NCBI RefSeq assembly: GCF_006345805.1
Contig: NW_021825638.1
Location: 1 to 14,764 of the forward strand
Reading direction: 5' to 3'
Origin: Octopus sinensis
Taxonomy: Eukaryota
DNA length: 14,764 nt
How positions within the stretch are numbered: position 1 is the first letter of the stretch; each line of letters begins with the position of its first letter. Positions 1 to 14,728 of this stretch are shown here, piece by piece. A program made the position numbers.

Positions 1-2850
1 TCTATTTTCTGCGACAGGCATTGTAGAAATTTCTTAAATGCTAAGCGAGCAGTGCATAGAAGTTAAAATGTATCCACACCTCTGCTAGAAACGCTTGTTT
101 CCTACATAAAATATTCTCTGAGATGTCTCAAAATCTTTTTCATTTTCAATAACACATCATAATGTGTTGAATGTCTCATAATAAACAAAACCTAAATGCT
201 ATTTGCTGTCATTCTCAGATTTATTGCCATACACTTGAAGCAAATTGTCTGTGCAACAGACCCTTTGGTGTGGTAATTCTGTTAGTAGCAGATTTTCGCC
301 AAACTGCTCCTGTGATAACAAGAGATTCTAATGCTGTTATTATTGAAAATTGTATTAAATGCTCGCAACTTTGGCCTCATGTAGACATGTAAAATTGGTA
401 GGTATTTCCGGAAATCTGAAAATGACAGGGACAGAAGAATTTAGTAGTTGGTCACTTGATGTTGGAAGAATTTCATAATCGGCTACTTGATGTTGGAAAC
501 GTTACACTGACGTGTGAATATTGAATGACTGGAAGAAAGTTTAATTCCTATGCTATCAGAACTAATATCAGGCGGAAGGATATTATTAGATATTTGGAAT
601 TTCAAGAGATATCTCAAAGGAAGAATCAATCGAAAATGCCTCTTGAAAGACATTGTTATCTACTAAAAATGTAGTTACTTTCTACCTGAACAATTGCTAT
701 TCTTATATTGCTGCCTGGAAATATTCTATATATTTTTCTCTTGTGTGTCTTCGTTAAGATTTTTTCTTCAGCAGTAGTATCTTGCAACATCTGTGATACA
801 CGTTTTCACACATCTCTACTCCTAAAATGTGTTACGTCATAGAACGGCTTTACTCGTATATGAATTATTCTGTTTTATACTAGACTTTTGCTAAAAAGAA
901 TTCTGGGGTACGACTTATACAAGGGGCAAAGCTAAAAATATGAAAAAAAAGATATTGTACAAATGTTATATATTGTACCAAGACTTAACACTAAATTAGG
1001 GATATTACTTATACACAAGTAAATACGATGGCTTCAATTCAAAGACTCTGAGCTTCTCTCAATCTCCATTGCGCTTCTTGCTGCATCCACTGTTTCTTGT
1101 GAAGCACAAGAATTTGTTTGTCTGTTTATTTCCCTTCCTGTTTCTAATTGTTGTGCAGATAAGTCTGATCAATAACTTCTCACTAGTTCACTCTAATCTT
1201 TTTTCTTTCAAGACGAGTCTCCATTATGAATGAATTAAAAGTAGAAACACAAATCAATTTTTCCTTTTGTCTGCGAGGAGTTTTGCTGAATCTACTTAAC
1301 ACATAACCAACATTTAAATGACATGATAACATGATATCACAGAATATAATTAATTGATTCTACTGTAGTCTGTTGATTAGGCTTCAAGTCAACTTTTGAA
1401 GGCGAAATAATCAAACTTGATGCATTGTTGAATAAAAGTGTATATTTGTTCATGAATGATTACATTCTTACTTAAATATGCATGTGCGTTGCGTGCGTGC
1501 GTGTGTATCGAGTATTGATGCATTTTGTATGTTGTGTTAAGAACAAAGAATTTACTATCTCAATAAATAAATGATTGCGGGCACGATAGCTAGTCTTTAA
1601 ACAAGCTTGAAGAAACATTTGCTAAAAAGTCCAAAATTCGGAGACTTTATGTCGTTTTCTTCTAAGGTAGAAGGATGGAATTTGATGGTTCTGCTTCGCT
1701 GAACATCCCATAAGAAACTCTGTATATTACTTAAGTACTTATATTGAAAAAAATTATAAGAAAAAAAAGGCAAAAATTATAACAAACACCGTATTTAATC
1801 GTCGTATTAAAATGAACGCGCCACTGTTATACGCATCAGTGAAAGTTCGTATGTAAATGAGATATTTATACTATATTATACTATACCATATATATATATA
1901 TCGTGAAGTATATTTGCCACCTAAATGTGGATGACCCATATGGGACGATGGTACTGTAGTTTAAAACCCCAGGAAGATATCTTCTCCAGTTGGCTAACGG
2001 CGCACTGTCTGTACTTGCGAAGGGAAATCACTGTTTCATCCCTAGCCTGACGTGATACACACGGACCCGGGTTTCTGGGTAGTAAACTATCATTAGTGTG
2101 TGACAATCATCGCCTAAGGATGAGACGTGATTCCGAATGCAAAATACAATATGCTTTTTCCAGTGACAAACGGTTGCTAATCTCGAAAAAGGAAGAAAAC
2201 AACAATAATAAATCTCTGAACGAGACGTAAACAGTCGCAGCACGATATCGGGAAGTATATTTGCCACCTAAATGTGGCTGACCCACATGGGACGATGCTA
2301 GAGTGTGATAATCACCAGCTGAGATCAGCAGCTGTCTGTGACTGGAAAAAGCATATAGTATTTTGCGTTCGGAGTCACGTCTCATCGCTATTACCCGTCC
2401 TGTTTCCCATCTTTTTCTCTCGTTGTTTGCGTCTTTAACTCATGTGTTTTCCTAAGTCATGTTGTTAACAGTTGGTGACGTCCTGTACGCGTATATGCCA
2501 CCCACCATACATATAATAATTTCCATTATTATTTAATTGAACGGCCACGCATCTAATTCCAAGTATATAATATATATATATATATATATATTATATTATA
2601 TATATATATATATAGAAGGAGCTTCTACAGGACTAGAACTGTTTCATTCAAGAGAAATCATCAGGAAGCTATTTAACTATATATATATGTATATATGTAT
2701 ATATATATATATCATATTATATATTTGTATGTATATTATGTATATGTGTGTGTATGTGTATGTGTACATGTACGTGTACGCTCGTGTGTTTATGTATATG
2801 TAGGTACGTAGAGTTTATTATGTAGGATGTGTACTATCCTATGTGTAATG

Positions 2851-2890
<40 letters not shown>

Positions 2891-3110
2891 TATATATATA
2901 TAATATATATATATAGGTGTATATATATATGTGTAAGTTTATATGTATGTATCCGTCTGTATAATGGGTAACTGCACGTATATACTTAATATTTATTATT
3001 TATGTATATGTAGGTACGTAGAGTTGTATGTATGGATGTGTATATATACATATGTGGTAAATGGGTATATATATATATATAGTATATTATATATATATAT
3101 ATTATATATA

Positions 3111-3178
<68 letters not shown>

Positions 3179-3534
3179 TATATATATGTGTGTAAGTTTA
3201 TATGTATGTATCCGTCTGTATAATGGGTACCCGCACGTATATATACTTAATATTCATTATTTATTTTTTGAGTATGCATGTATGTATATGAATAACTGCA
3301 CGTATATATATTTTATTATTTATTTTTTGAGTATGCATGTAAGTATATGAACATAAGGAGGAGCGCGTGGTGTGTATGTGTAAGCATATGTATAGATATA
3401 TGATACTTTTACGCATGTGTGTACTTATGTGTATATATGGATGCGCGTGTGTGTGTGTGTGTATGTGTACGCATGTATATGTGTAGGTGTGTGTATGTGT
3501 ATATATAGTATATATTTGTGTGTATATGTATATA

Positions 3535-3573
<39 letters not shown>

Positions 3574-12428: not shown

Positions 12429-12473
<45 letters not shown>

Positions 12474-12672
12474 AAATGGCAACACGTTTGTATATTTCTA
12501 CATGCCATGCCTGTATATCCTTATATATATGTGTGTTTCTATTATACGAAGTTTTGTCAGTAAACAAATCGCGGTTTCAAAGCGACGAAAATATTTTGAC
12601 ACAAATTAAATATAAATGTTGAAGTGAATGCGTTTTCTTAAATAGCTTATATACAATCTTCCTTGCTGCAAT

Positions 12673-12709
<37 letters not shown>

Positions 12710-12941
12710 TTAATCCAAACATGAAAACACAAAGAGAAAACACAAGACGTGAGGACGTGGAACAAGTATAGTATTATTGGACGCTCAGGAAAGAAGGAAA
12801 GAAGGAGGGTTTCGTTTCGAGCGGAGCTCTTCGTCGAAACATAGGAAAAGGAAAGATCCAAAGAAGGGAAGACGGAGGGAAAAAATCGCCAACGATCACA
12901 TTTTGAATATATATATATATATAAACACACGCGGTCACATT

Positions 12942-13001
<60 letters not shown>

Positions 13002-14728
13002 TCAAAATGTAACCGCGTGTGTACCGTTGGCGATTTTTTTCCTCCGTCTTTCCCTTCTCTGGAGCTTTCCTTTCCCTATGTTTCTGACGAAGAGCTCCGC
13101 TCGAAACGTTAAACCCTCCTTCTTCCCTTCCTTCCTGAGCGTCCAATAATACTATATTTGTTCCACGTCCTCCCGTTGTGTTTTCTCTTTGTGTTTTCAT
13201 GTTTGGATTAACATTATATATATATATATATATTCGAGTGTGTCGAAACATAACGACTTTTAAGAAACGCTATAAGAAAATTAGGGTTATGTGACCCCTC
13301 CGTACCACTCGCGTACACCCCCACAATTAAATACTCTAATTTTCTATATTAAGCATATAATCTCTAATACATATAATAAATTGCTTATGAAGCATTTGAT
13401 CATATTCCACTGTAGGAACCGTGTTTAAAACATCTGATGAGTTAAGACAATTGGTAGGTAGGTATCCCTACAAAATTGTAAAATTGCAACTTTTCAATGA
13501 ATTTTTTTTTAGAAAATGTATATATTTGTTAAATGATTTTCTTTTGTTTTTCTGATTATTTCAGAGCTAAGTTGTATTATAATTTTACAAAAATACCTAT
13601 ATAAATTCAAACTGTAATAATTTAAGTATATAAAATTGTATAATGGCAACTAGAAGTAAAAGCAGCAATTGAGCATTTGGATTTCCTGCAGAATTTCCTA
13701 CAACAATGACCCACATCAAATGCTGATATATTCCGAGATTCTTTTTCTTCAGAAAGCTTGAAGAACATATATATATATAAAAAAAGACTTCATCCCCAGC
13801 GAAAGAATGCTACCGCATTGTTGCTGCAGATGTGCAAACAATGTGGGACAATTTTTCTTGTCCTTATATTGGATTTGAGGGAAAAGCTCTAAAAATTGAT
13901 AGATTGATTGAATCTGCTTATAAATTAAACAAAATACCTATGAAGCAAAGAGGAGATAATTTCGATAAGAAATTCGAGGAGTTCGATGAAATGTTTGATA
14001 TATGCACCTGCACTTGTTATGACAATCAAATAAATAGATCTGACTGTCGTAGCCAATACCTCTTCCTTGTCATAGCCAAGGAGTCGAACGTGCTATCAAA
14101 TTTAGTGATAAAGACTTCTGAAGTGAGAATATGCTACCAAAATAGGCACAAATGCCTATTAATTGTACAGAAATCAAGACAAAGTTTACCTCACTTTGAC
14201 TGGAAGAGACAATGGTCATTTAATTAAATAGTAATTATTATTAATGCTTATTTTATGGTGTTCACTGTCCATGTATTTCGTTTGAGGTTCGTGCATAGAT
14301 TTTTTATTGCATATCATAATAGTCATTAAAAATTTACCTTTTGCTAATATTGAAAGTGCTTTTCTGAATACAGGCATATTTCTAAAATAAAAATAATACA
14401 AAATATATAAATAAAGATTCCAATAACTGTTTTTTTTTTCAGGGTATAGGGGAGGTGCATATAATTTTTAAAATGTTTTATAAGTAATATTTAACCAATA
14501 CAAAGTTAATAGCATAAAAAACAAGTTTACATTTCCTTATATTTTCAATATTCAAAACGCAGAATTAGGTGGGGTGGTGCCATGCGAAGGGTAGGTTTTT
14601 AACTCAGCAAGTTTATACTTAAAAAAAATTTTAATTTATTTCTCACACCAAAATGATCACCAAGCAATGTGGAATCAGAAATAAAATTTCGACCCCCGCC
14701 TAATACATATATATATATATATATCGGA

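What the first reader, a model, noticed from the sequence alone, without database searches (positions are those of the whole stretch)
2620..13114. Dense set of hammerhead-ribozyme mini-elements nested in microsatellites (Penelope- or retrozyme-like system)
Seen: about eight HHR-type motifs in 10.5 kb (2620-, 5116+, 5408-, 5858-, 6988+, 11703-, 12809-, 13080+). They fall into at least three sequence families, mostly in short non-coding cassettes with sharp edges against (TA)n or (TATG)n. Established: Penelope-like elements carry minimal HHRs in their pseudo-LTRs, and retrozymes are non-autonomous HHR retroelements. Inference: these are non-autonomous self-cleaving RNA elements mobilised in trans by a Penelope RT/GIY-YIG enzyme that prefers microsatellites. 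No RT is encoded in the window.
Basis: partly seen in the sequence, partly recalled or inferred. Interest (0 to 1): 0.85.

Follow-up and report, generated by a model that had tools for sequence, protein, structure and literature searches.

The report
Decayed Penelope-type hammerhead elements in microsatellites
Seven short non-coding repeats carrying hammerhead-ribozyme motifs of the kind known from Penelope-like retrotransposons sit inside simple-sequence repeats here, but only two still have an intact ribozyme core, so this is a real but fairly ordinary transposon relic field.

Summary
Seven of the eight reported sites are real hammerhead (HHR)-related sequences; the eighth (5858-) is not. 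They form two unrelated groups. Family A has two ~62-bp copies. Families B (three copies) and C (two copies) are ~190-240 bp and homologous to each other.

Only two copies match a full HHR descriptor: A1 (2620-2670, minus) and C1 (13080-13114, plus). That compares with 0.01 expected per shuffled window. A2 and C2 carry small deletions in the core. All three B copies have U at the invariant A6. No Rfam hammerhead model matches any site, even at E<=10.

C1 has the published hallmarks of Penelope-like-element (PLE) minimal HHRs:
- an extra nucleotide between A9 and G10.1;
- a G10.1-C11.1 pair;
- a palindromic ACGU in place of helix III;
- a 4-bp helix I;
- an opposite-strand partner about 270 bp away.

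Nine of 14 element ends abut microsatellite arrays (0.63 expected). This fits the known AT-rich/(TA)n target preference of PLEs.

There are no tandem copies, so the retrozyme/circular-RNA reading is not supported. The window encodes no RT or GIY-YIG. Genome-wide copy number and linkage to PLE ORFs could not be checked.

Verdict: new members of a known kind, mostly dead.

The parts
2615..2677 (-). Element A1 (63 bp). It is almost entirely one complete type-I hammerhead, at 2620-2670. Helix I is 6 bp and the core is CUGAUGA. Helix II is 3 bp above a U.U base. GAA follows, then helix III of 4 bp with an 8-nt loop, then H17=A. The predicted cut lies between 2626 and 2625 on the minus strand. (TA)n flanks both sides.
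5109..5170 (+). Element A2 (62 bp), 97% identical to A1 in inverted orientation. The HHR region is 5116-5165. It lacks one A of GAAA, so position 15.1 becomes C. The 3' flank is only a short TA-rich stretch and the 5' flank is unique sequence.
5316..5520 (-). Element B1 (~205 bp). The HHR relic is at 5404-5446. Its core reads CUGUAGA (A6 replaced by U) and helix II has an A.C mismatch. The 3' end abuts (AT)n at 5252-5315. The 5' end is not in a microsatellite.
6921..7112 (+). Element B2 (~192 bp). The HHR relic is at 6986-7028 and its 5' core has decayed to CUCUUGU. Helix II and GAAACGU are intact. The 3' end lies 2 nt before (TA)n at 7115-7243. The 5' end abuts an imperfect TA/TG tract.
11616..11803 (-). 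Element B3 (188 bp). The HHR relic is at 11699-11741, with core CUGUGGA and GAAG in place of GAAA. It is inserted in one microsatellite: (TGTA)n at 11501-11615 on one side and (ATGT)n at 11804-11876 on the other.
12708..12945 (-). Element C2. The HHR relic is at 12804-12843. It lacks U4 and two nucleotides at 16.1/17. The 5' end is interrupted by a short duplication plus (TA)n at 12901-12945. It lies head-to-head with C1.
12997..13213 (+). Element C1 (~215 bp). The complete minimal HHR is at 13080-13114:
- helix I GUUU/AAAC;
- core CUGACGA;
- an extra A before G10.1;
- helix II GAGC-UCC-GCUC;
- GAA, then ACGU (no loop III);
- H17=U.
The predicted cut lies between 13110 and 13111. The 3' end is 103 nt after the cut.
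12946..12996 (.). (AT)25 array between the 5' ends of C2 and C1. Outer arrays flank their 3' ends: (TA)n at 12677-12707 and a (TA)9 tract at about 13214-13232.
5830..5920 (-). The claimed site '5858-'. It has no hammerhead core and is not part of the system.

Best explanation
The window holds seven insertions of short, non-coding, Penelope-like-element (PLE)-derived retroelements. Each was built around a type-I hammerhead.

The elements:
- Family B/C units are about 190-240 bp. They have conserved 5' ends (ATTC...ATG) and conserved 3' ends. A PLE-type minimal hammerhead sits about 100 nt from each end.
- Family A is a ~62-bp unit that is little more than one complete hammerhead.

Proposed mechanism (inferred, not shown): a PLE reverse transcriptase/GIY-YIG endonuclease encoded elsewhere in the genome copied the RNAs into nicks in AT-rich, alternating purine-pyrimidine microsatellites such as (TA)n and (CATA)n. 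This left 3' ends flush with the repeat. In one case it left a head-to-head inverted pair.

Role of the ribozyme: in the source transcripts the hammerhead would cut multimeric or read-through RNA. The minimal type would act as a dimer. Cutting is not needed for insertion.

Current state: the copies here are dead. Five of seven have lost the consensus core. The B lineage already carried U at A6 when it spread.
For: Shown here:
- Two complete HHRs are present, against 0.01 expected per shuffled window.
- Seven copies fall into two groups.
- The HHR block is the best-conserved stretch of the B/C alignment.
- 95.8% of helix cells pair, against 46-47% when the 3' partners are slid by one column.
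- C1 has an extra nucleotide between A9 and G10.1, a G10.1-C11.1 pair, a palindromic ACGU and a 4-bp helix I. These are the traits listed for PLE min-HHRs in PMC4209133.
- C1 and C2 lie on opposite strands with cores about 270 bp apart. PMC4209133 describes pairs on opposite strands 100-700 bp apart. PMC8557442 describes an inverted 5'-truncated copy beside the insertion.
- 9 of 14 ends abut microsatellite arrays, against 0.63 expected.
- B3 has the same 4-nt repeat on both sides, so the array was the target and not a tail.
- Four of five B/C copies share the 5' terminus.
- The window has no RT or GIY-YIG.
- None of the seven copies has terminal inverted repeats.

From papers:
- (TA)n is a preferred PLE target (PMC8557442).
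- The Anolis PLE nicks AT-rich DNA and starts reverse transcription 85-92 nt 3' of the HHR cut. HHR mutants still insert in vitro (PMC11167929).
- Here the B/C 3' ends lie 91-103 nt after the predicted cut, counted.
Against: - No Rfam hammerhead model matches any copy, even at E<=10 on the isolated sites.
- Only 2 of 7 copies have a consensus core.
- Covariation is minimal: one pair varies on both sides, and 140 of 500 shuffles scored as high.
- A1's predicted fold is no more stable than shuffles (-7.6 kcal/mol against -7.4 +/- 2.8). Its helix II is only 3 bp above a U.U.
- The lowest-energy C1 dimer fold is not the dimeric hammerhead.
- No PLE ORF, pLTR pair or tail was seen in the window.
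- Non-HHR elements also nest in microsatellites here: two tRNA-like SINE types, a 559-bp cassette at 9884-10442, and a mariner. The target bias is therefore not specific to the HHR elements.
- Family A lacks the PLE min-HHR traits. It has no extra nucleotide, a U.U at 10.1-11.1 and a long helix III. Its link to PLEs rests only on type-I topology and the TA flanks.
- With two to three copies per family, fixed ends are suggestive and not proven.
Confidence: 0.55

Rival explanations
1. The copies are not a dedicated non-autonomous family. They are the ordinary 3' terminal pieces of autonomous Penelope-like elements (solo or 5'-truncated pseudo-LTR ends), left by abortive reverse transcription.
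For: - PMC4209133 states that most min-HHRs occur as single motifs 'probably related to truncated PLEs'.
- The preprint 10.64898/2026.07.22.740005 (Discussion read) says most PLE insertions are 5'-truncated and keep a single terminal repeat.
- The HHR-to-3'-end distance of 91-103 nt matches the pLTR/ORF-junction layout of the Anolis element (PMC11167929).
- B1 has no microsatellite at its 5' end.
Against: - Four of five B/C copies, from two diverged subfamilies, start at the same ATTC...ATG terminus directly against a repeat. Random 5' truncation would not give that.
- A1 and A2 also share their 5' end.
- No ORF remnant adjoins any copy.
Confidence: 0.25
2. They are metazoan non-LTR retrozymes. 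These are tandem HHR repeats transcribed, self-cleaved and ligated into small circular RNAs that serve as transposition intermediates.
For: - The hammerheads are type I.
- The elements are non-coding and have low GC.
- Unit size (190-240 bp) falls in the published 150-450 bp range (PMC7229834 passages).
- A U.U at the base of helix II, as in A1, is reported for an axolotl retrozyme HHR (PMC7229834).
Against: - No head-to-tail tandem copy of A, B or C exists. The longest TRF period is 36 nt, and self-BLAST finds only dispersed or inverted copies.
- A single HHR cannot release a unit-length RNA.
- The B/C motif is the minimal PLE type, not the canonical loop-loop type that defines retrozymes (PMC7229834, PMC7761336).
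Confidence: 0.06
3. They are SINE-like repeats moved by a microsatellite-specific LINE or another machinery. The hammerhead-like block is an inherited relic that plays no part.
For: - Other non-HHR repeats in the window also sit in microsatellites.
- The B lineage spread with a non-consensus core.
- If the organism is an octopus (a weak hint only), Dong-R4 LINEs are reported as recently active there (PMC13282606, table passage). That such LINEs target simple repeats is my recollection, not something I checked.
Against: - The motif carries PLE-specific traits that the descriptor did not require.
- There is no poly(A) or LINE-type tail and no tRNA-like head; ARAGORN found 0 genes.
- The head-to-head pair is a PLE signature (PMC8557442).
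Confidence: 0.08
4. Family A is a C/D-box snoRNA-like sequence and not a ribozyme. More generally, the motifs could be chance matches.
For: A1 gives a weak SNORD102 match: a terminal stem plus UGAUGA, 17.2 bits, E=1.2 on 79 nt.
Against: - The score is far below the gathering score of 47.
- The D-box position reads CUGU, not CUGA.
- The full HHR descriptor is met, with 0.01 expected by chance.
Confidence: 0.03

Closest known systems
Minimal type-I hammerheads of Penelope-like elements (Cervera & de la Pena 2014, PMC4209133). Lunse, Weinberg & Breaker (RNA Biol, listed as 2016/2017) was seen only as a title in reference lists.
   Same: - B/C have no loop III and a palindromic ACGU.
- There is an unpaired nucleotide between A9 and G10.1.
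- G10.1-C11.1 is present.
- Helix I is short (4 bp).
- Copies are dispersed singly or as opposite-strand pairs.
- Sequence varies widely between copies.
   Different: - Helix II is 4 bp here, against 6-8 bp in the Schistosoma and Drosophila examples described in the text.
- No flanking PLE ORF is visible.
- Three of five B/C copies carry U at A6.
- Family A does not fit this class: it has a stable helix III, no extra nucleotide, and a U.U at 10.1-11.1.
EN+ Penelope-like elements with (TA)n/AT-rich target preference: Neptune and Naiad (PMC8557442), and Poseidon PAc of Anolis (PMC11167929).
   Same: - Insertion occurs into (TA)n-type repeats.
- Inverted head-to-head copies are seen.
- The HHR lies about 90-100 nt upstream of the 3' end of the insertion.
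- Insertion does not depend on HHR catalysis.
   Different: - No RT/GIY-YIG ORF, pLTR pair or 30-40-bp tail was identified here.
- (CATA)n is also used as a target.
- The units are only 62-240 bp.
Metazoan non-LTR retrozymes (PMC7229834; preprint 10.64898/2026.07.22.740005).
   Same: - They are non-coding, low-GC units of similar size with type-I HHRs.
- They are proposed to be PLE-dependent and derived from pLTRs.
   Different: - Retrozymes are head-to-tail tandem arrays expressed as circular RNAs.
- The copies here are single or inverted.
- The B/C ribozyme is the minimal type, not the canonical type.
Schistosome Sm-alpha/Sj-alpha SINE-like retroposons with a hammerhead (known to me from the review PMC6765202, a figure legend and its reference list only).
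   Same: They are short, dispersed, non-coding repeats that carry one HHR.
   Different: The legend describes those as a promoter followed by a canonical active HHR. No promoter or tRNA-like part was found here.

Membership tests
Hammerhead ribozyme (core consensus) | C3 U4 G5 A6 N7 G8 A9, G12 A13 A14, A15.1-U16.1, H17 not G | tested here: met
   Met in 2 of 7 copies: A1 (2620-2670, minus) and C1 (13080-13114, plus). Not met in A2 (15.1 becomes C), C2 (no U4, no 16.1/17), B1 and B3 (U at A6; B3 also G at 15.1) or B2 (5' core decayed).
Hammerhead ribozyme (core consensus) | Three helices around the core, supported by covariation | tested here: inconclusive
   Helices I and II pair in 95.8% of cells in B/C. 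Only one pair changes on both sides, and 140 of 500 shuffles scored as high. Family A has two near-identical copies, so no covariation is possible.
Rfam hammerhead families (names such as Hammerhead_1, _3, _II, HH9, HH10 are recalled, not seen in any call) | Covariance-model score at or above the gathering score | tested here: not met
   No hammerhead match appeared at gathering score, at E<=10 over the window, or on the isolated A1 and C1 sites.
PLE minimal hammerhead (PMC4209133) | [quoted passage not shown] | tested here: met
   An extra A is present in C1, C2, B1 and B3, and a G in B2. It is absent in family A.
PLE minimal hammerhead (PMC4209133) | G10.1-C11.1 pair, and palindromic 15.2-16.2 without a loop III | tested here: met
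   G-C in 5 of 5 and C-G in 5 of 5 B/C copies. Family A has U.U at 10.1-11.1 and an 8-nt loop III.
PLE minimal hammerhead (PMC4209133) | Location in the pseudo-LTR of an element that encodes RT plus GIY-YIG | not testable with these tools
   0 of 133 open frames of at least 45 aa hit RT or GIY-YIG. No eukaryotic genome collection was available to find longer copies.
PLE insertion signature (PMC8557442, PMC11167929) | AT-rich/(TA)n target, and an inverted head-to-head partner copy | tested here: met
   9 of 14 ends lie within 8 nt of a TRF array, against 0.63 expected. C1 and C2 are head-to-head around (AT)25. The 30-40-bp tail was not looked for.
Metazoan non-LTR retrozyme (PMC7229834) | Head-to-tail tandem repeats of 150-450 bp, each with a type-I HHR | tested here: not met
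   TRF finds no period above 36 nt. Self-BLAST and nhmmer find only dispersed or inverted copies.
Metazoan non-LTR retrozyme (PMC7229834) | Expression as linear and circular RNAs cut at the HHR site | not testable with these tools
   No transcriptome data were available.
MITE / DNA transposon | Terminal inverted repeats | tested here: not met
   For each of the 7 copies, the local alignment of the 5' end against the reverse-complemented 3' end scored within the shuffle range: 75 to 290 of 300 shuffles scored as high.
C/D-box snoRNA (family A only) | C box RUGAUGA and D box CUGA next to a terminal stem | tested here: not met
   The C-box-like UGAUGA and the stem are present. The D position reads CUGU. 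SNORD102 scores 17.2 bits against a gathering score of 47.

The most novel reading that the evidence does not exclude
B/C and A are discrete, single-unit retroelements that parasitise Penelope-like elements, with no tandem or circular-RNA stage. On this reading they would be a large share of the 'unclassified SINEs' of this genome.

Family A would be the smallest such unit: a ~62-nt mobile cassette that is essentially one self-contained hammerhead. The B lineage spread with a catalytically dead core (U at A6). That would mean the hammerhead-shaped RNA is kept as a handle or fold for the retrotransposition machinery and not for cleavage.
Probability: 0.1. Interest if true: 0.65.

Novelty: new member of a known kind. 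Interest (0 to 1): 0.3.

Why it matters
If the reading holds, this window is a compact natural example of how Penelope-type hammerhead elements pile up in simple-sequence DNA. It contains two young copies with intact cores, their freshly broken twins, and an older lineage that spread with a non-consensus core.

That agrees with recent in vitro work showing that hammerhead cleavage is dispensable for PLE insertion (PMC11167929). It could also help classify repeats that pipelines label as unknown or as SINEs.

It does not open a new kind of system. Dispersed PLE minimal hammerheads, (TA)n targeting and PLE-derived non-autonomous repeats are all in print.

Tried and rejected
- **Rfam.** Four scans gave no hammerhead: gathering score, E<=10 on the whole window, and two on isolated sites. 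The many miRNA-like matches are microsatellite hairpins well below gathering scores.
- **The repeat finder.** The output was swamped by microsatellites. I replaced it with masked self-BLAST.
- **One core mismatch allowed.** This added no locus to the descriptor hits.
- **Thermodynamics.** A1's hammerhead structure (-7.3 kcal/mol) is close to its lowest-energy fold (-7.6) but no better than shuffles. The C1 monomer and dimer lowest-energy folds do not give the hammerhead. Folding energy therefore neither supports nor excludes activity.
- **MITE reading.** Rejected, because no copy has terminal inverted repeats.
- **tRNA-derived head.** ARAGORN found 0 genes.
- **Further copies.** nhmmer profiles of B/C and of A found no further copy in the window.
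- **Own covariance model.** One attempt failed on a string-length slip. I did not repeat it, because no eukaryotic sequence was available to search.
- **Organism.** A search with the mariner relic gave mostly unnamed hits. One hit is named Octopus bimaculoides, at 90% identity over 26% of the query. That is a hint only.
- **Supplements and papers not seen.** The supplement of PMC4209133 could not be searched, so its species lists and alignments may bear on whether this family is already catalogued. PMC5785218 is not held.

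
Full report
**Setting.** The window is AT-rich animal-type DNA with no N. TRF arrays cover 15% of it, mostly (TA)n and (TATG)n-type. Between the arrays lie interspersed repeats:
- a Mos1-type mariner relic at 8033-9072 (minus);
- a PIF1-helicase fragment at 171-389;
- two tRNA-like SINE types, read by eye and repeated;
- the elements in question.

No RT or GIY-YIG domain was found in 133 open frames of at least 45 aa (frames dominated by four residue types were dropped beforehand). 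The organism was not determined. One mariner hit is named Octopus bimaculoides, at 90% identity over 26% of the query.

**The observation.** I read all eight sites in the stated orientation. I then wrote a hammerhead (HHR) descriptor that required:
- CUGANGA, with an optional nucleotide after A9;
- helix II of at least 3 bp;
- GAA, then A15.1...U16.1 and H17 not G;
- helix I of at least 4 bp.

It finds two loci: 2664->2620 (minus) and 13084->13114 (plus). In 300 dinucleotide shuffles the mean was 0.01 loci; 3 of 300 had one and 0 of 300 had two. The looser core string used by Craig et al. (CUGANGA-N7-17-GAAA) gives 2, against 0.134 in shuffles. Allowing one core mismatch adds nothing. The site at 5858- has neither core box on the minus strand.

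**Families.** Masked self-BLAST, alignments and nhmmer show seven copies and no more.
- **A:** A1 at 2615-2677 (minus) and A2 at 5109-5170 (plus), 97% identical.
- **C:** C1 at 12997-13213 (plus) and C2 at 12708-12945 (minus), 92% identical. They lie head-to-head around (AT)25.
- **B:** B1 at 5316-5520 (minus), B2 at 6921-7112 (plus) and B3 at 11616-11803 (minus), 70-76% identical.

B and C align over their whole length, with 66% mean column identity. The hammerhead block is the best-conserved stretch. There are therefore two unrelated groups, one with two subfamilies.

**State of the ribozymes.**
- A1 is a full type-I hammerhead. Helix I is 6 bp. Helix II is 3 bp above a U.U. Helix III is 4 bp with an 8-nt loop. 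The cleavage triplet is GUA.
- A2 differs by losing one A of GAAA.
- C1 is a minimal hammerhead: CUGACGA, an extra A, GAGC-UCC-GCUC, GAA, ACGU, U, and a 4-bp helix I.
- C2 lacks U4 and two nucleotides at 16.1/17.
- All three B copies have U at the invariant A6. B3 also has G at 15.1, B1 has a helix II mismatch, and B2 has a decayed 5' box.

On the five B/C copies, 95.8% of helix cells pair, against 46-47% when the partners are slid by one column. Only one pair covaries (G-C, C-G, U-G), which shuffles reach in 140 of 500 trials.

No Rfam hammerhead model matches at any threshold tried. A1's fold energy is no better than shuffles, and the lowest-energy C1 dimer fold is not the dimeric hammerhead. 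The motifs are therefore real by consensus and by homology. Activity is plausible for at most two copies and is unproven.

**Why Penelope-like.** Cervera & de la Pena (PMC4209133; abstract, results, discussion and part of the methods read) list features of PLE minimal hammerheads that their descriptor did not impose:
- a G10.1-C11.1 pair;
- palindromic 15.2-16.2;
- a helix I of 4-5 bp.

They note that most motifs are single, or occur in pairs on opposite strands 100-700 bp apart, 'probably related to truncated PLEs'. C1/C2 and the B copies fit each of these points.

Craig et al. (PMC8557442, passages) describe (TA)n as a preferred PLE target and an inverted 5'-truncated copy beside the insertion.

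Frangieh et al. (PMC11167929, main text read) show the following for an Anolis PLE:
- it nicks AT-rich DNA;
- reverse transcription starts 111-118 nt into the ORF, while the HHR cut is 26 nt into it, so the start is 85-92 nt after the cut;
- HHR mutants still insert in vitro.

Here the B/C 3' ends lie 91-103 nt after the predicted cut (from the coordinates). The B lineage also spread with a non-consensus core.

**Microsatellite nesting.** 9 of 14 element ends lie within 8 nt of a TRF array. Random placement gives 0.63 on average, and 0 of 20000 placements reached 9. Two more ends touch short or imperfect TA tracts. B3 sits inside a single 4-nt repeat array, which shows that the array was the target and not an element tail.

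The bias is not specific to these elements. SINE copies, a 559-bp cassette at 9884-10442 and the mariner also border arrays.

**Discrete units or truncated ends?** Four of five B/C copies begin with the same ATTC...ATG terminus, and A1 and A2 share their 5' end. This favours defined units. One possible route is short cDNAs that run from a pLTR transcription start to the internal RT start site; that is my inference. With so few copies I hold this reading at 0.55, against 0.25 for ordinary truncated PLE ends.

**Rejected readings.**
- Retrozymes require head-to-tail tandem arrays (PMC7229834; preprint 10.64898/2026.07.22.740005). None exists here.
- MITEs: there are no terminal inverted repeats.
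- C/D snoRNA for A: 17.2 bits against a gathering score of 47, and CUGU at the D position.

**What stayed unchecked.** I could not check copy number, fixed ends genome-wide, linkage to PLE ORFs, or expression. The supplement of PMC4209133 could not be read. Lunse et al. is not held.

I cannot say that these particular families are unpublished. My searches found no paper that joins hammerheads with cephalopods, but they do not cover repeat databases.

**Verdict.** The finding is real but was over-read. It is a cluster of mostly dead, PLE-type hammerhead-bearing repeats in microsatellites: new members of a known kind.

Noticed in passing
window 7936-9198: A Mos1-type mariner relic. Terminal inverted repeats (AAGTTCCC...GGGAACTT) were seen by eye. 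The frames are broken, with HTH_48 and Transposase_1 hits on the minus strand. It is inserted at the edge of a (TA)n/(TACA)n array.
   Followed up: partly
window 9884-10442: A 559-bp non-coding cassette lying exactly between two (TATG)n arrays (9800-9883 and 10443-10585). It has no hammerhead core, no Pfam hit and no second copy in the window. It is another microsatellite-nested insertion of unknown class.
   Followed up: partly
window 4226-4598 (-), 6644-6703, 6263-6559 (-), 5933-6017: Two kinds of tRNA-like SINE sequence, judged by eye from A/B-box-like heads. ARAGORN calls no tRNA. Several copies have ends against (TA)n, (CA)n or mixed arrays. Copies match at 95% (6644-6703 against 4235-4293) and at 73% (6263-6347 against 5933-6017).
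   Followed up: partly
window 2789-3345: A unit of about 120 bp recurs three times (about 2789-2852, 2931-3065 and 3190-3345), each time separated by (TA)n. This gives a higher-order repeat with a period of roughly 259 bp.
   Followed up: no
window 1898-2386: A 268-bp imperfect palindrome at 2119-2386 (64% self-complementary). A 70-nt segment (2249-2318) is repeated at 1902-1972 with 83% identity. Its nature is unknown.
   Followed up: no
window 12708-13213: C2, (AT)25 and C1 together form a ~500-bp near-perfect inverted repeat. It draws spurious plant and animal miRNA-precursor matches in Rfam, all below gathering scores. It could form a long hairpin if transcribed.
   Followed up: partly
window 171-392 and 13781-14227: A PIF1-like helicase fragment (Pfam E=7.9e-08), likely a Helitron relic. 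There is also a 148-aa open frame with no Pfam match.
   Followed up: partly
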